The position numbers were made by a program, and so were the translations under genes. A stretch of 64,000 bases of DNA from Eledone cirrhosa (lineage: Eukaryota), in NCBI GenBank assembly GCA_964016885.1, contig OZ024748.1, forward strand, positions 45,074,001 to 45,138,000, given 5' to 3'. This document shows, piece after piece, positions 1 through 61,871 of the stretch. The notes under the pieces were generated by a model. That model searched no databases, was not told the origin of the DNA, and saw nothing but the letters and a program-made list of their open reading frames with translations. The first letter of the stretch is position 1. Each line of letters starts with the position of its first letter.

Positions 1-74
1 ATCCGTAGTGGTAGAGCACTCAGTCCATGGGACGAGTTAGGTAGAAGTAGTAACACAACAGTTAGTTCACCATA

Positions 75-114
75 CCGAGGACAATCGTTTCACCTTATAC
101 GGATCTTCAGCTCG
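75..114 (-). ncRNA. Type I hammerhead ribozyme (minimal)
   Basis: revcomp CGAG-CTGAAGA-TCC gtataa GGT-GAAA-C gatt GTC-CTCG; GUC cleavage triplet. Confidence 0.7.
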
Positions 115-121
115 TATTGGT

Positions 122-162
122 CCGAGCTGAAGATCCGCATAAGGTGAAACGATTGTTCTCGG
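122..162 (+). ncRNA. Type I hammerhead ribozyme (minimal)
   Basis: CCGAG-CTGAAGA-TCC gcataa GGT-GAAA-C gatt GTT-CTCGG. Confidence 0.7.
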
Positions 163-255
163 TATGCTGAACTAACTGTTGTGTTACTACTTCTATATAT
201 ATATATATATATATGAAAGACGTAAAATAAGAAAACTATAAAAATTAACTTACTT

Positions 256-854: not shown

Positions 855-1645
855 TTGAAATATTAACAAAATAGATATTCTTGTGATCAATTAAATTTTA
901 TTATACATATTTCAGAGGTACTGAATCAAGTTCTACAGTACGTCCTCATCAGATAAAATAAAATGATACATGACATACCCTGACATGTTAGATGGTTAAG
1001 ATTTAATCAAGGTAGTGATTAACTTATGAGAAAACTCAATATTTATACCCTAATATTGAGAACATGCGAAAACGTAATAGAATCAATAGAGAGAGTGTGA
1101 GTAAGAAAAACATTGCCTTAATGCAACAGTTATAGAGTTTTTTAAATTTGAAATACTACTATAGGACTATAGAGTAAGACGTATCTGGAGTTATAATTTA
1201 TTTAGTATTTAGCTTGAGAAGACAACTGACAGATAATTAAAGAGAGGGAGAGACAAAGGGGAGTAATTTATGCTCAAATTTTCTTTAGACACACATAAAC
1301 ATATATAGCTTTGGCGGTTAAATTTCAAAATATTTAATTTATGTTATTTTAGGGTAAAGAATCAAAATTTTAGATTTTAAAAGTTGATGGTTATTTGTAT
1401 TAATTTTATAATATAATTGTGTTAAATTTCTAAAATTCAAAGTTTTATGAAAACAAATTTAAAGGATTTACGACGCCCGCGGGAAAAAAAAAAAAAAAAA
1501 AAAAAAAATTGATCACAAGAATATCTATTTTGTTCATATTTGAATTAATATTAATAATTCTTGAAAATATCCGCTGTAGAGTGCTTCCAATCTACTGTAA
1601 ATCTCATTCTTTGATGTACTCATTGAATCTTGTTTAACTCTTTAA
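851..1645 (-). mobile_element. HHR-bearing element (family C) with partial inverted ends
   Basis: 851-892 is inverted at ~1508-1551; related to 63850-64000; bounded by (TA)n. Confidence 0.6.
895..959 (-). ncRNA. Type I hammerhead ribozyme
   Basis: revcomp ATTTTAT-CTGATGA-GGAcGTACTG..CAGTACcTCT-GAAA-TATGTA-TA-ATAAAAT. Confidence 0.8.
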
Positions 1646-8451: not shown

Positions 8452-8512
8452 TATTTTATTATATATATTTCAAGGGTGCCAACATTTTGGTACGCCCTCA
8501 TCAGATAAAATA
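8452..8512 (-). ncRNA. Type I hammerhead ribozyme (family D)
   Basis: revcomp TATTTTAT-CTGATGA-GGGcGTaCCAA aatg TTGGcACCCTT-GAAA-TATATA-TA-ATAAAATA. Confidence 0.85.
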
Positions 8513-19892: not shown

Positions 19893-21289
19893 GAAAACAG
19901 GGAGAAAAAGACGATTATTAGGAAGAAAAACTTTTTTTTTCCCTTTTTATTTTTTTCTCTCTTTTTTCTGGGTTAGAAAATGATTAAAACGAAATATTTT
20001 ACTTTGTGTGAAGTGTTAAGGTATTAGTTGATTTATTTATTACTTAACAATGGCATTTATTGATTTATTTATATATTTAATAATTGTCTATTACCGGTTT
20101 CAGCATTTTTATGCATTATCAAATGATAATAATATGTATTGGTGTAAAAGAGTGGTGTTGGACATGTTAAAGAAATGGTGCAGAAAGAATAATGTTATTT
20201 ACAAACAAGGTTTAGGAAGTGAAAATAAAAGAGAAAAAAAGAGGCGTAACGTGGAGCATAATAAGGCAATGTGAAAGAAAAAATAATGTTATTTACAGGC
20301 ATAGTTCGTGAAGATAAGCAGATCAAAATGTGTTAATATAGCAAGAGTGATTAGTTGATCCATGATAGAGGCAAATGGTGGACTGGGGTTTGATATGATT
20401 TCCCTTTTTAGAGAGGTAATATGCAGGGGGGGGGGTGTAATTCATGCTGGATGATATTTAATTTATTTAAGAAAAAGGATTAGGTAGGGTGTACGGGAGG
20501 TAACTTTTAAAGAGACATATGCATTTGTAAATGTTTGATTGTTCGTTCCAGTTTTAGTTTAGTACGAAGTTTAGTGCATTAGGTAGAGGTTGGAATTTGT
20601 TAATGAAATACGTTTCCTTATTGGTACGATGGATGAAAGTAGAGTTGTCTATGAATTTGAAAATGGGGAAAATTTTAAAGTTTGGATGTTGGTTGGGTGC
20701 ACAATTGGCGATATGTTCAATAAACGCAATCTTTCTGTATTCCTGTATTTTGATTTGTGATTTATGGACAGTCATATGTTGTCGGAGGCTATTTTTTGTC
20801 TGTCCTATGTAGTGTTCTTGACAACCTGCACATGTAAAGTTGTGTTTAACTGTGAAATGTTATCCTTGTTTAAAATGGAATGTTGAACCTTCTATTAGAT
20901 TTATGCATATGCCACAGTTGGACCTTCCGCATTTTGTTACTGTAGAGTTCATTGTGGGGTTTGGTTGGATTTTGGCTTGTGTGAGGATGATTTTTATGGA
21001 TTTAGATTGTCTTTTCCTCTTTATGATGTTGTTTGTTTGGAGGATTTTGTTCATTCTTGGGTCTCTTTTTAGTAAAGGAATGTTCTGGAGGATGGTGTCG
21101 AATGCCTCATTGTTGAGGGGGTTGTGTGTGGAAATGTATGGTAGAGTTTTCTGTTGCGGTTCATTCCTGGGTTTGGGGTGTCTGAGTTCCTGGATGTCGA
21201 GTTTTAGGGTACGTTGGAATCCATTGTTGATTAGGGATGGTGGGTAGTTTCTGCTGATAAGTGTGTTTTTTAACCTTGTCATGTGATAT

Positions 21290-22430
21290 GTGAAAACCAC
21301 TCTCTACCGCAAAGTTCTAGACAAATACGGCAACCACTTCCACCAACACATAGAAAAGAACTGGGAGAGATATCTGGACGACTGCTTCATCCTCTGGCAT
21401 GAAAGTATAGATAGGCTGATTGAGTTTAAAACCCTTCTGAATGGACTCAACACAAACTTACAATTCACAATGGATTACAGCCATGAACAACTCCCTTTCC
21501 TCGACATCCTCATCAAGAAAACAAACAACAAAATAGAAACAGACATATACTACAAACCCACAGACTCCAAACAATGCCTTCCATTCAACTCGTGCTACCC
21601 TAAACACACCAAAATGGCAATTCCTTATAACCTAGCCAGAAGGATCTGCACAATAGTTTCAGATAAATACACATGCTATACACGACTAGAAGAATTAAAA
21701 AACACACTTATCAGCAGAAACTACCCACCATCCCTAATGAACATTGGATTCCAACGTGCCCTAAAACTCGACATCCAGGAACTCAGACACCCCAAACCCA
21801 GGAATGAACCGCAACAGAAAGCTCTACCATACATCTCCACACACCACCCCCTCAACCATGAGCCATTTGATACCATCCTCCAGAACATTCCTTTACTAAA
21901 AAGAGACCCAAGAATGAACAAAATCCTCCAAACACACGACATCATAAAGAGCGAAAGACAACCTAAATCCATAAAAAACATCCTCACACAAGCCAAAATC
22001 CAACCAACCCCCACAATGAACCCTACAGTAACAAAATTCGGAAGGCCCAACTGTGGCATATGCATAAATCTAATAGAAGGTTCAACATTCCATTTTAAAC
22101 AAGGACAACATTTCACAGTTAAATACAACTTTACATGTGCATCTGAAAACCTAATCTATGTTTTGACCTGCTCAGGTTGTCAAGAGCACTACATAGGACA
22201 GACAAAAAGCAGCCTCCGACAAGTTACAAATCAAAATACAGGAATACAGAAAGATTGCGTTTCTTGAACATATCGCCAATTGTGCACCCAACCAACGTCC
22301 AAACTTTAAAATTTTACAAATTTACAAATTCATAGACAACGCTAATTTCATCCATCGTACCAATAAGGAAACGTATTTCATTAACAAATTCCAACCTCTA
22401 CTTAATGAATTAAACTTCGGACTAAACTAA
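21290..22430 (+). pseudogene. Penelope RT (5' truncated) plus Cys linker plus GIY-YIG endonuclease
   Basis: WERYLDDCF, QLPFLDILI, TDIYYKPTD, (C)GRPNCGIC, NLIYVLTCSGCQEHYIGQT; frameshifting deletion near 22223. Confidence 0.9.
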
Positions 22431-23460: not shown

Positions 23461-23605
23461 ATATTATGGGATTTGAACTCATAAAGTAATGAACCGGAAC
23501 AAACGTTACAACGCATTTCTCCCGATGCTCTATCGATTTTGCCAATCTCCCATCTATAAATGATATCTTATATATATATATATTTTATTTAGGCTAAATA
23601 GAGAG

Positions 23606-23655
23606 TCTTGTTACTCTGGAGTTTCGCCTGTTTATCACAGGCTCATCAGACAAGA
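23606..23655 (-). ncRNA. Type I hammerhead ribozyme in fold-back element 23585-23770
   Basis: revcomp TCTTGT-CTGATGA-GCCTG tgataaa CAGGC-GAAA-CTC ca GAG-TA-ACAAGA; canonical. Confidence 0.9.
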
Positions 23656-23770
23656 TGACCCTGTGATAAAGAGGCGAAACTCCAGGGTAACAAGGCTCAC
23701 TATTTAGCTTTAATAAAATGAATATTTAAACTCTACATTGGTATTTAGTACTCTTTCGTCTCGGCCGTCA

Positions 23771-25722: not shown

Positions 25723-25787
25723 TATTTTGTCTGATGAAGGCATACCATAATTTAATGTGGTATCCCTGAAATATGTATAATGAAATA
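25723..25787 (+). ncRNA. Type I hammerhead ribozyme (family D)
   Basis: TATTTTGT-CTGATGA-AGGcATACCAT..GTGGTATcCCT-GAAA-TATGTA-TA-ATGAAATA. Confidence 0.85.
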
Positions 25788-26180: not shown

Positions 26181-26240
<60 letters not shown>

Positions 26241-26271
26241 AGATCAAAAGATGGTTAAAGGAGTTCCATGT

Positions 26272-26340
26272 ATTTTATTATGCGCATTTCAAAAACAAAC
26301 ATCATCATGCAATAATATTTGTGTTTTCATCAGATAAAAC
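26272..26340 (-). ncRNA. Type I hammerhead ribozyme
   Basis: revcomp GTTTTAT-CTGATGA-AAACA..TGTTTTT-GAAA-TGCGCA-TA-ATAAAAT. Confidence 0.85.
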
Positions 26341-26487
26341 AGGAGGACATGATATGAAGGCTAAAAAACACTTGTGGATAGTGCAGTTTTAAATCAACAT
26401 ATATATTTTGGAAATGCAACATATCATATGTTGATTTAAAACTGCACTATCCACAAATGTTTTTTACCCTTCATATCATGTCCTCCT

Positions 26488-26556
26488 GTTTTATCTGATG
26501 AAAACACAAATATTATTGCATGATGATGTTTGTTTTTGAAATGCGCATAATACAAT
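26488..26556 (+). ncRNA. Type I hammerhead ribozyme
   Basis: Mirror of 26272-26340; one stem I mismatch. Confidence 0.8.
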
Positions 26557-26680
26557 ACATGGAACTCCTTTAACCATCTTTTGATCTCATATATTATGTA
26601 TACTCCAGTCCTACAAACTGTAGAGTGCTTCTTATCCGATATCTGCATTGCTTTATTGTACTACAATAAAACTCACCTCC

Positions 26681-26726
<46 letters not shown>

Positions 26727-29648: not shown

Positions 29649-29728
29649 GTTATTCCGGGTTGAATCGGAGGTAACCACAGTAAGTAAGGTACTCAATACA
29701 TTGCAGAGTATAAAGTTTTAATATAGAT

Positions 29729-29781
29729 GAGATTCTACAGGACTAGAACTGTTTCATTCTTTAGAAATCATCAGGAATCTC
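29729..29781 (-). ncRNA. Type I hammerhead ribozyme (family F)
   Basis: Exact mirror of 29784-29836. Confidence 0.85.
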
Positions 29782-29783
29782 AG

Positions 29784-29836
29784 GAGATTCCTGATGATTT
29801 CTAAAGAATGAAACAGTTCTAGTCCTGTAGAATCTC
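29784..29836 (+). ncRNA. Type I hammerhead ribozyme (family F)
   Basis: GAGATTC-CTGATGA-TTTCT aa AGAAT-GAAA-CAG ttctagtc CTG-TA-GAATCTC. Confidence 0.85.
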
Positions 29837-29879
29837 ATCTATATATATATATATATATATATCTTCTTTGATATTTTTT

Positions 29880-32710: not shown

Positions 32711-32920
32711 TATTCATTAGTTAAGCAAAACAAGACCACAAATTTCACAAGGAAGACATTATTAAAAGATTGTCAACATATTTCAGTTTGATGTAAGGAA
32801 TGTAGAGAATAATAATTATTATTCTCTACATCCCTTACATCAAACTAAAATATGTTGACAATCTTTTAATAATGTCTTCCTTGTGAAATTTGTGGTCTTG
32901 CTTTGCTTAACTAATGAATA
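32711..32920. repeat. ~105-bp-arm palindrome ending at (TA)n
   Basis: Centre AATAATAA|TTATTATT at ~32815; a few arm mismatches. Confidence 0.85.
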
Positions 32921-36244: not shown

Positions 36245-36376
36245 CGTTTCTGAATTTGTTTAGCAAGATTCTTTATCTGAAATCGTGTGTTGAAACCGAT
36301 ATTGTTATACTTTGGGAGGGTCATGTTGCCAATAAGTGGTGTGTTTCTTATTGGCAACATGACCCTCCCAAAGTAT

Positions 36377-36419
<43 letters not shown>

Positions 36420-38302: not shown

Positions 38303-38370
<68 letters not shown>

Positions 38371-38399
38371 AACACAAGATGGTTAAAAGAGTTCCATGT

Positions 38400-38468
38400 A
38401 TTTTATTATGCGCATTTCAAAAACAAATATCATCATGCAATAATATTTGTGTTTTCATCAGATAAAAC
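38400..38468 (-). ncRNA. Type I hammerhead ribozyme (family G)
   Basis: Homolog of 26272-26340, intact core. Confidence 0.85.
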
Positions 38469-38629
38469 AGGAAGACATGATATCTTTTGTTCTTATATAT
38501 TATGTATACTCCAGTCCTACAAACTGTAGAGTGCTTCTTACCCGATATCTGCATTGCTTTATTGTACACTCAGCCACGCGCCTTCACGAATATATATATA
38601 TATATTGTACTACAATAAAACTCACCTCC

Positions 38630-38667
<38 letters not shown>

Positions 38668-38713
38668 GGAGGTGAGTTTTATTGTAGTACAATATATATA
38701 TATATATTCGTGA

Positions 38714-38905
38714 AGGCGCGTGGCTGAGTGGTGAGAGAATTAGATTCGCAATCGAGAGGTTGTGAGTTATATCCTTGAGCAAGACACTTTATTTCACGTT
38801 GCTCCTTCTACCTGGAGTTGCGACCGATAGATAGTATTAGCAATTGGAAAAACCAATGGAAACATTGTTTCCTCGCGCCGATTTGACGAAAGTCTGTCGA
38901 CTGAC
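38714..38905 (+). mobile_element. tRNA-derived SINE with Meta-type core
   Basis: GGCGCGTGGCTGAGTGG A box; TCCTTGAGCAAGACACTTTATTTCAC core. Confidence 0.8.
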
Positions 38906-52620: not shown

Positions 52621-53274
52621 ATACATTAACAGAGAAAGCTTTAAGCTATACTCTGACTGGCTTCCATCTCACTCAACAAACATTAGGATATACCTTAGTA
52701 TAATCCCAATTTTACGTTTGGGGTGCTAACTATACGTATTTTGCGGATAGCCAGTTGTATTATTTTATATGAGACATAATTAAAAAACATCTCCCTTTCC
52801 AAACAATTGTTTCATTATAAGATTTCTACAAGTTGGGAAAAATATGTCCAGGTTATGTACAAGCCTGCACATAGTCCGTAGGAATATATGCAGGTGGGCA
52901 CTTATAAATCATCAGTGGATGCCCGTCAAACATCGATATAAAAAAAATTTTCTTACCGATATCTAATGTTCTTCGATGGTCCCCTTCCGTATCAGAATGA
53001 CCGCCAAATTTGAAATTCCAGCAGTCTCAGAATGAGAAATTTCACACTGTTATCAAGCGGAAAGGGGAGGTCATCGCGAAACATAAAAAAATAGAATAAT
53101 ATGCACGCGGGTCAATTAATTTTTTCAATAATTTTAACCTTGTGTGTGAAGAACTCAATTAGATTTTAAAAAAATAAATATATGCATGTATTATTTATAC
53201 ACGCATATAGGTATTTTCTTATATATATATCAGGTTCAATTCAAAAGAATATTTGGTGTAGTAAAGTATGGTTA

Positions 53275-53385
53275 TATTATAAAGTGTCATGATCGTACGG
53301 CTGAGCTCTTGCTTTTTCAACAGCTAGTCTGGAACTAGCCGCTTAAGTGGCAAGAGCTCAGCCGTCGGGTCATGACACTTTATTA
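53275..53385. mobile_element. Short fold-back element related to family H
   Basis: Arms TAAAGTGTCATGA..CGGCTGAGCTCTTGC / GCAAGAGCTCAGCCGTCGGGTCATGACACTTTA. Confidence 0.65.
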
Positions 53386-53458
53386 TATATATATATAAAT
53401 ATATTTAAGTAAGTTAATTTAAAAAAAATTTTTTTTTTTTAAATTTTCTTATTTTACG

Positions 53459-53544: not shown

Positions 53545-53609
53545 TATTTCACTATACATATTTCAGGGATACCAAATTAAAATATGGTATGCCTTCATCA
53601 GATAAAATA
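53545..53609 (-). ncRNA. Type I hammerhead ribozyme (family D)
   Basis: Intact CTGATGA/GAAA core; homolog of 25723-25787. Confidence 0.8.
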
Positions 53610-57802: not shown

Positions 57803-58005
57803 ACGAAGGAAATGTGGTAAGGAACCAGGTGGACCATAACGCACCAAAGTACTCAATACCTGAGGTAGTAGAGTGGGTAATAGGAACCAGTAAGACCCCG
57901 ACAGCTGAGCTCAAGCCGTTTCGACGGCTAATTCTGGACTACCAGAATTAGTCCAGAATTAGCCGTCGAAACGGCTTGAGCTCAGCTGCCGGGGTCTTAC
58001 TGGTT

Positions 58006-58010
<5 letters not shown>
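57800..58010. mobile_element. Family H fold-back element (HHR 3' half on both strands)
   Basis: Arms 57880-57939 / 57950-58010; AGAATTAGCCGTC-GAAA-CGGCTtgagctcAGCYG-TC-GGGGTC; copies at 58505-58694, 60414-60625, fragment 19765-19842. Confidence 0.8.
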
Positions 58011-58075
<65 letters not shown>

Positions 58076-58188
58076 CGTACACATTCATATAAAAACATAT
58101 ACATACAAACACACGCACACATATATATAATTATATATACATATATATATATATATTTAGTTATGTAATAAACAACATAAGGCAATTA

Positions 58189-58248
58189 TTCCATTTACCA
58201 GTGGTTTCTTAAAAGCAAAAAATTTTGCTTTCAATCATCAGAATGAAA
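58189..58248 (-). ncRNA. Type I hammerhead ribozyme
   Basis: Mirror of 58327-58386. Confidence 0.9.
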
Positions 58249-58326
58249 AAATGCTGGTGTATTTATTGATATTGGATTCTAAAAAGGTTTTTAAAAAATC
58301 CAATATCAATAAATACACCAGGATTT

Positions 58327-58386
58327 TTTCATTCTGATGATTGAAAGCAACATTTTTTGCTTTTAAGAAACCACTGGTAAATGGAA
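58327..58386 (+). ncRNA. Type I hammerhead ribozyme
   Basis: TTTCATT-CTGATGA-TTGAAAGCAA catttt TTGCTTTTAA-GAAA-CCA c TGG-TA-AATGGAA. Confidence 0.9.
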
Positions 58387-58690
58387 TAATTGCCTTATGT
58401 TGTTTATTACATAACTATTAAGCTCTGTTATCTACATAGAGCACTCTTTTTTCCTGGACTTTTCCGACGGAATTACTTCACACACACACACATATATATA
58501 TATATAACGAACGAGGTGTGATAAGGAACCAGATGGACTATAACGCACCAGAGTACTCAATACTTAGGGTAGTAGAGTGGCTAATAGGAAAAAGTTTAAC
58601 CCCGACGGCAGAGCTCAAGCCGTTTCCACGGCTATTTCTGGACTGAAATAGCCGTCGAAACGGCTTGAGCTCTGCCGTCGGGGTTAAACT

Positions 58691-58753
<63 letters not shown>

Positions 58754-60368: not shown

Positions 60369-60418
<50 letters not shown>

Positions 60419-60622
60419 AACGAGTAGGACCCCGACGGCTGAGCTCAAGCCGTTTCGACGGCTAATTCTGGACGGCTAATTCTGCGTCCAGAATTAGCCG
60501 TCGAAACGGCTTGACCTCAACCGTCGGGGTCCTACTCGTTCCTATTACCCACTCTACTACCCTAAGTATTGAGTACTTTGGTGCGTTATGGTCCACCTGG
60601 TTCCTTACCACATTTCCTTTGT

Positions 60623-61807: not shown

Positions 61808-61871
61808 ATTTTGTCTGAGGAAGGCATAGCATATTGTTAATATGTTATCCCTGAAATATATATAATGAAAT
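61808..61871 (+). ncRNA. Type I hammerhead ribozyme (family D)
   Basis: ATTTTGT-CTGAGGA-AGGcATAGCATATT gtt AATATGTTATcCCT-GAAA-TATATA-TA-ATGAAAT. Confidence 0.8.

What the first reader, a model, noticed from the sequence alone, without database searches (positions are those of the whole stretch)
26241..26587. Palindromic elements that place a complete hammerhead on each strand
Seen: four unrelated families form long inverted repeats with a full HHR in each arm, diverging from the centre: 42-195, 26241-26587, 29721-29844 and 58158-58417. A transcript from either strand would contain one ribozyme and its antisense and could fold into a rod. Three of the four have a few arm mismatches, so they are unlikely to be read artefacts. 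Inference: they are by-products of PLE inverted-repeat formation. They could give ambisense self-cleaving RNAs, long dsRNA (ADAR or siRNA substrate; coleoids edit RNA heavily) or self-silencing of the ribozyme.
Basis: partly seen in the sequence, partly recalled or inferred. Interest (0 to 1): 0.75.

Follow-up and report, generated by a model that had tools for sequence, protein, structure and literature searches.

The report
Penelope palindromes fold at capped start
This mirror-image DNA is a short head-to-head insertion of a very common Penelope-type jumping gene, a known structure, but its thousands of sister copies turn at one fixed base, often with an extra G on each half, which likely marks two reverse transcriptases running off the capped start of an uncut RNA; the self-cutting motif in each half is predicted to be silenced in any RNA that spans both halves.

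Summary
The palindrome is real: 162-nt arms, 3 mismatches, a type I hammerhead core in each arm. It is the ribozyme end (pLTR) of a young Hydra-clade Penelope-like element (800-aa RT+GIY-YIG ORF, over 10,000 ends): a tail-less inverted copy joined head to head to a tailed copy inside (TA)n. This architecture, and opposite-strand hammerhead pairs, are published.

The fold point recurs. Of 14,800 arms that reach one base (q1), only 6,352 continue upstream; 1 of 100 listed arms stops at the ribozyme cut. Junctions with an untemplated G on both arms outnumber template-type ones 128 to 3. Arms of one copy share variants (distance 1.3 versus 6.9 between copies). Best reading: two primings on uncleaved, capped RNA run off its start and are joined.

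Ambisense self-cleavage is unlikely (predicted hammerhead pairing 0 in the full rod). One run of unrecorded kind shows A>G/T>C at four arm sites, consistent with ADAR editing.

This scan found twin priming, and the extra G, before on other DNA. My searches found neither in print for Penelope elements.

The parts
26181..26232 (.). (TA)n target microsatellite, left flank
   Evidence: 26181-26240, period 2; nearly all sister copies sit in (TA)n
26233..26402 (-). Inverted, tail-less pLTR arm, q1 (26402) to about q170; its outer end is the second inferred RT start site
   Evidence: 128 of 304 arms end at q167-176
26279..26333 (-). Type I hammerhead core of the left arm; predicted cut after 26279; stem I 8 bp, palindromic stem III
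26403..26425 (.). 23-nt junction filler unique to this locus; ends in a second copy of antisense q8-q1 plus C
   Evidence: 1 match in the genome; similar re-copied 5' ends in sister junctions
26426..26597 (+). Sense pLTR arm starting at q1 (26426), the family truncation hot spot and inferred capped start
26495..26549 (+). Type I hammerhead core of the right arm; predicted cut after 26549 (q124); A>C at 26553 weakens stem I
26598..26685 (+). One-sided tail (to q258), the main inferred RT start site; in full elements it runs on into the ORF leader, ATG about 78 nt further
26686..26724 (.). (TA)n target microsatellite, right flank
38364..38694 (.). Second copy of the same family: inverted arm q~48-170 joined to a sense piece from q~152; interrupted tail, its end mirrored around a TA run
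1..195 (.). Second family: palindrome 42-195 with tail on the left (runs past the window start); U.U stem II closure, stem I cut short
29652..29844 (.). Third family: palindrome 29721-29844 with tail on the left (outer end approximate); centre reads as an extra C and G around AG at that family's own hot spot
58158..58480 (.). Fourth family: palindrome 58158-58417 with tail on the right; weak hot spot

Best explanation
The palindrome is a short, head-to-head insertion of the ribozyme end (pLTR) of a young Hydra-clade Penelope-like retrotransposon, likely built anew at this site by two reverse transcriptions of uncut RNA that both ran to its probably capped 5' end. Shown: family, intact ORF, (TA)n targeting, two fixed 3' ends (about q170 and q258), the q1 hot spot, the extra G, and arm sharing. 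Inferred: the endonuclease nicks both strands of (TA)n; one nick primes at q258 (tail end), the other at about q170. Both cDNAs cross the uncleaved hammerhead and often run off at q1, a C-A initiator-like start, where a C is added opposite the cap. The two cDNA ends are then joined through their self-complementary ATAT, through one retained C (centre C or G at random), or with filler as here. Longer cDNAs give the same layout with kilobases between the arms. A hammerhead on each strand follows from this geometry and is predicted to be locked in a rod in read-through RNA, which would make it an ADAR substrate rather than a ribozyme.
For: [quoted passage not shown] Hydra motifs RWT, DKT, CxCx5C, CxxC/CxH and no CCHH. 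Inverted tail-less copy 5' of 30 of 43 tail ends in a tail-anchored sample, 20 of them within 700 bp. Hot spot: 6,352 of 14,800 arms continue past q1; 1 of 100 listed arms ends at the ribozyme cut. Extra base: among arms passing a last-position filter, C follows in 2,009 and A/T in 2,198, where the template gives G. Both-arm junctions C..G 128 loci versus template-type G..C 3. Extra G at q1 joints also in run X1 and at the hot spot of the 29721 family. Arms: within-copy distance 1.28 versus 6.85 in 2,000 permutations (minimum 5.13); 206 of 229 diagnostic alleles shared by both arms; centre C 44, G 30 relative to the tail. Inverted arms can hold sequence that the tailed arm lacks (L084, L088, L100, L108), and zero-loop centres occur (L093, L099); both are hard for a snap-back. 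In vitro precedent: both strands cut and extended, two RT start sites bracket the tail, uncleaved RNA is the template (PMC11167929). Untemplated G as a cap mark is described for L1 (PMC9341517).
Against: No RNA shows a start at q1: no RNA holder was listed and 3 raw RNA runs gave 0 reads. A terminal-transferase C without a cap is not excluded. 27 of the first 50 C..G centres read CATG, which also occurs at q48-56 and could be templated; the other 23 do not. In copies whose pLTR precedes the ORF, only about 2 of 12 independent loci stop near q1, neither with a clear G, fewer than the family average. The 58158 family has only a weak hot spot (about 78 of 100 listed arms read through, hand count), and none was evident in 30 loci of the 42-195 family. 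One RNA cannot be told from two sister RNAs; 3 of 68 copies have arms that differ at 3 or more diagnostic sites. The 68-copy set was chosen for a 1-nt centre, partly by likeness to the window, and 6 copies with broken or N-containing arms were dropped.
Confidence: 0.78

Rival explanations
1. Self-priming (fold-back): one cDNA, or an antisense template, snaps back at the junction and copies itself, as proposed for Penelope inverted repeats.
For: Arms share private variants (11 shared versus 38 single-arm). The model is proposed in PMC3846280 (passages).
Against: Inverted arms often contain sequence missing from the tailed arm. They end at a fixed site near q170. Zero- and one-base loops occur. 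Centre C and G are mixed within one haplotype (15 G, 11 C). One copy (L076) has arms of two subfamilies.
Confidence: 0.08
2. The palindrome is itself a mobile unit (MITE-like, SINE-like or retrozyme) whose arms are homogenised later by gene conversion or template switching.
For: 248 loci share one exact centre. Copies are young (97-99% identity). An internal pLTR promoter is known for D. virilis Penelope (PMC2377424, passages), so stubs could be transcribed.
Against: Junctions form a continuum from about 100 bp to over 5 kb. Arm-restricted variants were shared by at most 2 copies. A rare variant stays single-armed in 7 of 8 loci, so later homogenisation is inefficient. The main haplotypes also occur in copies that read through into the 3' UTR (L103, L106).
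Confidence: 0.08
3. Functional ambisense ribozyme or viroid-like rod RNA.
For: Both cores are intact in three of four loci; isolated arms fold stems I and II with mean pair probability 0.38-0.78. Run X6 hints that arm-containing dsRNA exists.
Against: Pair probability 0 in the full palindrome, at a cost of 77-101 kcal/mol. cDNAs cross the cut site in 99 of 100 listed arms. PLE minimal hammerheads cleave poorly and as dimers (PMC4209133). No circular RNA evidence was obtained.
Confidence: 0.03
4. Assembly or read artefact at hairpins.
For: The centre filler is unique to this locus; the locus itself was not spanned by independent reads.
Against: Unique flanks, one-sided tails, arm mismatches, thousands of loci, and the same kind of joints in contigs of run X1.
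Confidence: 0.02

Closest known systems
Hydra clade of C-terminal EN+ Penelope-like elements (Craig et al. 2021, PMC8557442; passages, section 11 and a supplement search seen), including Hydra-1_Obim
   Same: RW[K/T], DKT, CxCx5C linker, no CCHH, CxxC and CxH around E and N, canonical hammerhead, (TA)n insertion; inverted 5'-truncated copy with a tail at one end (their Fig. 2 legend).
   Different: Unit about 3.66 kb with a 1-kb 3' UTR (most Hydra elements are under 3 kb); tail about 88 nt rather than 30-40. Identity with Hydra-1_Obim (2,507 bp, 'no pLTR' in File S1) was not tested by sequence.
Dual minimal hammerheads on opposite strands in Schistosoma PLEs (Cervera and de la Pena 2014, PMC4209133; parts 1-2 of 4 read)
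   Same: They report pairs of hammerheads about 100-700 bp apart on opposite strands and relate them to truncated PLEs.
   Different: They give no junction analysis or mechanism.
Anole Poseidon PAc in vitro mechanism (Frangieh et al. 2024, PMC11167929; parts 1-3 of 4 read)
   Same: Both target strands cut and extended, two internal RT start sites that bracket the tail, AT-rich target, uncleaved RNA as the main template.
   Different: There both strands used the same start sites, and the parts read do not address inverted junctions or the cap. Here the start site goes with the arm (q170 inverted, q258 sense), and the start sites lie upstream of the ATG.
Adineta vaga Pen2a/Pen3 inverted pLTRs (Arkhipova et al. 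2013, PMC3846280; passages read)
   Same: Head-to-head pLTRs, palindromic junctions, one-sided tail, Inr-like motif in the pLTR.
   Different: They propose self-priming on an antisense template; the junctions here favour two sense-RNA-templated cDNAs.
L1 twin priming (recalled, not read) and the untemplated 5' G of full-length L1 (PMC9341517, passages read)
   Same: Two primers on opposite target strands give an inversion; an extra G is read as the copied cap.
   Different: L1 twin priming gives non-overlapping pieces from a variable internal site; here both pieces overlap and start at fixed sites.
Metazoan non-LTR retrozymes (bioRxiv 10.64898/2026.07.22.740005; part 1 of 5 read, supplements not seen)
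   Same: Type I hammerhead, PLE-related, non-coding.
   Different: Retrozymes are head-to-tail arrays; this is head to head, cut-site ends are rare, and it is a stub of a coding element.

Membership tests
EN+ Penelope-like element | Single ORF with RT and C-terminal GIY-YIG endonuclease | tested here: met
   L128 ORF with YRDD at 357 and LIY..YFG at 678. Pfam gave 0 families; homologues at 29-38% identity carry precomputed PF26215 and no names.
EN+ Penelope-like element | pLTRs from tandem or partial-tandem copies, holding a hammerhead | tested here: met
   Tail runs into the ORF leader; five-unit array with period about 3,657 bp.
EN+ Penelope-like element | Inverted 5'-truncated copy and a tail at one end | tested here: met
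   30 of 43 tail ends.
EN+ Penelope-like element | RT groups with PLE RTs in a tree | not tested
   No named reference sequences were aligned.
Hydra clade | RWK, DKT, CxCx5C, no CCHH, CxxC and CxH motifs | tested here: met
   RWT 37 (T for K), DKT 123, CxCx5C 659, CxxC 759, CxH near 787 (definition).
Hydra clade | Insertion into (TA)n | tested here: met
Type I hammerhead ribozyme | Core CUGANGA, GAAA, UH with stems I-III | tested here: met
   Both focal arms and both 58158 arms; the 29721 and 42-195 arms have a U.U closure of stem II.
Type I hammerhead ribozyme | Self-cleavage | not testable with these tools
   Genomic proxy is negative: 1 of 100 listed arms ends at the cut.
Non-LTR retrozyme | Head-to-tail non-coding monomers | tested here: not met
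   Head-to-head stub of a coding element.
Non-LTR retrozyme | Circular RNA | not testable with these tools
   No RNA run of this organism on record.
MITE (non-autonomous DNA transposon) | Symmetric terminal inverted repeats and fixed length inherited as a unit | tested here: not met
   One-sided tail, length continuum, arms re-made per insertion.
MITE (non-autonomous DNA transposon) | Defined target-site duplication | tested here: inconclusive
   Cannot be read inside (TA)n.

The most novel reading that the evidence does not exclude
Penelope inverted repeats are written by a two-RT complex that starts at two fixed, strand-assigned sites on one uncleaved, capped RNA and copies the cap at both ends. 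The palindrome centre is then a genomic map of the element's transcription start, and the thousands of resulting fold-backs are a main source of ADAR-edited double-stranded RNA in this animal.
Probability: 0.45. Interest if true: 0.6.

Novelty: new member of a known kind. Interest (0 to 1): 0.4.

Why it matters
How Penelope-like elements make their tandem and inverted structures is named as open in PMC8557442, and the model in PMC3846280 is self-priming on an antisense template. The junction census here (128 versus 3, a fixed stop at q1, almost no stop at the ribozyme cut) favours two primings on capped, uncleaved sense RNA and names an exact base to test by CAGE and in vitro. It also says that the hammerhead rarely cuts the RNA that gets inserted. 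The locus itself is likely dead debris. The reading has been reached before in this scan on other DNA, so the gain is a sharper test, not a new system.

Tried and rejected
Rfam at gathering thresholds found nothing in the window. Pfam found no family for the ORF or for four homologues, and the PDB sequence search gave nothing below E 0.86.

No RNA holder was listed. Raw RNA runs X7, X8 and X11 gave 0 reads and do not show the organism, so they are no test.

The idea that the window's 22 extra centre bases are upstream template was rejected: they occur once in the genome and the true upstream sequence differs.

A circular 258-nt monomer (tail joined to q1) was considered and dropped: the tail continues into the ORF leader.

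The hammerhead cut as the fold point was rejected. A splice acceptor at q1 was rejected because no AG precedes it. Self-insertion at q1 was rejected because the junctions are 5'-to-5'.

Two source templates for the window copy were not supported: its G>C at q42 is single-armed in 7 of 8 other loci, and the one locus with the same q32+q42 pair has another haplotype.

No clear A>G hypermutated copy was found among 304 fetched arms.

The first fold test of 42-195 used a wrong stem III length and was redone. The census patterns exclude matches with C at the last position, which removes many exact palindromes; searches have no such filter.

Paper searches for a cap or twin-priming account of Penelope inversions found none. 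Subscription papers and bioRxiv supplements were not visible.

Full report
Observation. The four inverted repeats are real and each arm has a hammerhead core facing outward. A strict type I scan gave 10 motifs in the window and none in 20 shuffles; Rfam lists none. At the focal locus the cores are at 26333(-) and 26495(+), with a long stem II and a short palindromic stem III, the dimer-type form described for metazoan Penelope-like elements (PMC4209133). The arms differ at 3 of 162 positions, all in the right arm relative to a young reference copy.

Family. I number the pLTR from q1 (window 26426) to q258 (tail end); the predicted cut follows q124. The tail-end motif has 5,269 + 5,269 matches in the 3.0-Gb genome. 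Following 40 loci from the head of that list (43 tail ends, 14 loci extended to about 7 kb) showed a 1-kb 3' UTR and then an ORF upstream of q1. [quoted passage not shown] It has RWT, DKT, CxCx5C, CxxC and CxH and lacks CCHH, the features given for the Hydra clade (PMC8557442 section 11). In tandem copies the tail continues into the ORF leader and the unit is about 3,657 bp, so reverse transcription starts inside the RNA, as shown in vitro for anole PAc (PMC11167929). An inverted, tail-less copy lies 5' of 30 of the 43 tail ends, 20 of them within 700 bp. The palindrome is the short end of this range. The layout is Fig. 2 of PMC8557442, and opposite-strand hammerhead pairs were noted in PMC4209133.

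Recurrent fold point. One exact 35-nt centre occurs at 248 loci. Of 14,800 arms that contain q1-q16 exactly, 6,352 (43%) continue into the upstream template; some of the rest will be point mutants. At the hammerhead cut only 1 of 100 listed arms (17,039 matches in all) stops. The template base beyond q1, read on the antisense strand, is G. Among 11,499 arms passing a last-position filter, C follows in 2,009 and A or T in 2,198. Where both arms end at q1 with 0-6 bases between their flanking letters, C..G occurs at 128 loci and the template-type G..C at 3. Of the first 50, 27 read CATG, which could be templated from q48-56; 23 do not. Several junctions repeat the last 8 bases plus C, as does the window's filler. 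Contigs of run X1 show joints into 26426 with G between. q1 is the A of a C-A dinucleotide, an initiator-type start, and an untemplated G is read as the copied cap in L1 (PMC9341517). The 29721 family has its own hot spot at a C-A step: about 37 of 100 listed arms end within 3 bases, about 6 with a clear extra C (hand count). The 58158 family has a weak one. The 42-195 family showed none in 30 loci. Against: of about 12 independent loci where the pLTR precedes the ORF, about 2 stop near q1, without a clear G.

Arms are re-made at each insertion. In 68 copies with a 1-nt centre (77 found; 3 without a tail and 6 with broken arms dropped), the two arms of a copy differ by 1.28 substitutions, against 6.85 for permuted pairs (minimum 5.13 in 2,000). 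206 of 229 diagnostic alleles are in both arms, 11 substitutions private to one copy in the sample are mirrored, and no arm-restricted variant is shared by more than 2 copies. The centre is C in 44 and G in 30 relative to the tail, as expected if either cDNA's terminal C is kept. Later homogenisation is weak: a rare variant is single-armed in 7 of 8 loci. Three copies have arms that differ at 3 or more diagnostic sites, one over its whole length (L076), so two templates are sometimes used. Snap-back of one cDNA, the model in PMC3846280, fits badly: inverted arms often carry q1-q160 when the tailed arm starts at q47, q168, q179 or q212, and zero-loop centres occur.

What the two hammerheads do. 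In RNA read through from either flank the antisense arm precedes the ribozyme. Predicted pairing of stems I and II is 0 in all four full palindromes, and forcing them costs 77-101 kcal/mol in the three tested with correct geometry. Isolated arms give 0.38-0.78, except 42-195 (0.05 or less). Self-silencing is therefore predicted and ambisense cleavage unlikely. Run X6 (88 million letters of contigs, kind not on record, another sample than X2) shows T>C at q123 (15%), A>G at q132 (5%), A>G at q139 (11%) and T>C at q146 (11%), in 15-27 contigs each. The same changes are at 0.01% or less in X2 and in 0-1 of about 285 genomic arms. All four lie in the paired part; none is listed in the tail. This fits A-to-I editing of both arm orientations, but it is family-level, has no matched DNA, and X6 is only inferred to be RNA.

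Verdict. A known Penelope-like architecture in a new Hydra-clade family; the locus is likely inert. The useful part is the junction census, which points to two primings on capped, uncleaved RNA. I found no paper with this account for Penelope elements. Earlier unchecked notes of this scan reached twin priming, the Hydra assignment and the extra G on other DNA. I had noted the cap idea before reading them, and their agreement is not independent evidence.

Noticed in passing
window 57880-58010, 58590-58693, 60414-60545, 53273-53389: A further family of TA-flanked palindromes with one-sided tails. Its arms hold GAAA, a palindromic stem and GUC but no CUGANGA, and three copies turn at or near the same GTCCAG; possibly truncated inside a hammerhead, or a permuted form.
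   Followed up: no
window 23582-23719: Fifth hammerhead palindrome, with the core in one arm only (23649, minus strand); the other arm starts inside stem II.
   Followed up: no
window 32711-32920, 36299-36384: TA-flanked fold-backs without a hammerhead core, probably the same process in other families.
   Followed up: no
window 20827-22141: 447-nt inverted repeat (95%) around a retroelement RT fragment (YLDD-like motif by eye), an internal inversion of another element.
   Followed up: partly
window 902-952, 8460-8504, 25731-25779, 53553-53601, 61815-61864: Solo type I hammerheads of one related group; 61815 has CUGAGGA.
   Followed up: no
window 38364-38730: Second copy of the focal family whose tail end is duplicated in mirror form around a TA run, together with unrelated flanking sequence.
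   Followed up: partly
L277, L278, L248-L252 (G000:C6 38.06-38.09 Mb): Array of at least five full 3.66-kb units with an inverted arm at its 5' end, which implies a cDNA over 18 kb or a circular template; the end units and a separate stub palindrome about 6 kb away share one haplotype.
   Followed up: partly
G000:C1:123807501, C1:198676196 and others: The last 8 bases plus C are repeated two or three times at junctions, like telomerase-style realign-and-copy on a 3-base match that needs the extra C.
   Followed up: partly
L080, L075, L053, L009 flanks: Both TA flanks of some copies carry the same interrupting base pattern, a hint of target duplication or expansion hidden in the microsatellite.
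   Followed up: no
L138:3915-5033: 3' part of another Hydra-type ORF (CxCx5C, no CCHH) near a focal-family palindrome.
   Followed up: no
The 29721-family motif is strand-biased in the genome (5,240 forward, 8,339 reverse), perhaps through a large array.
   Followed up: no
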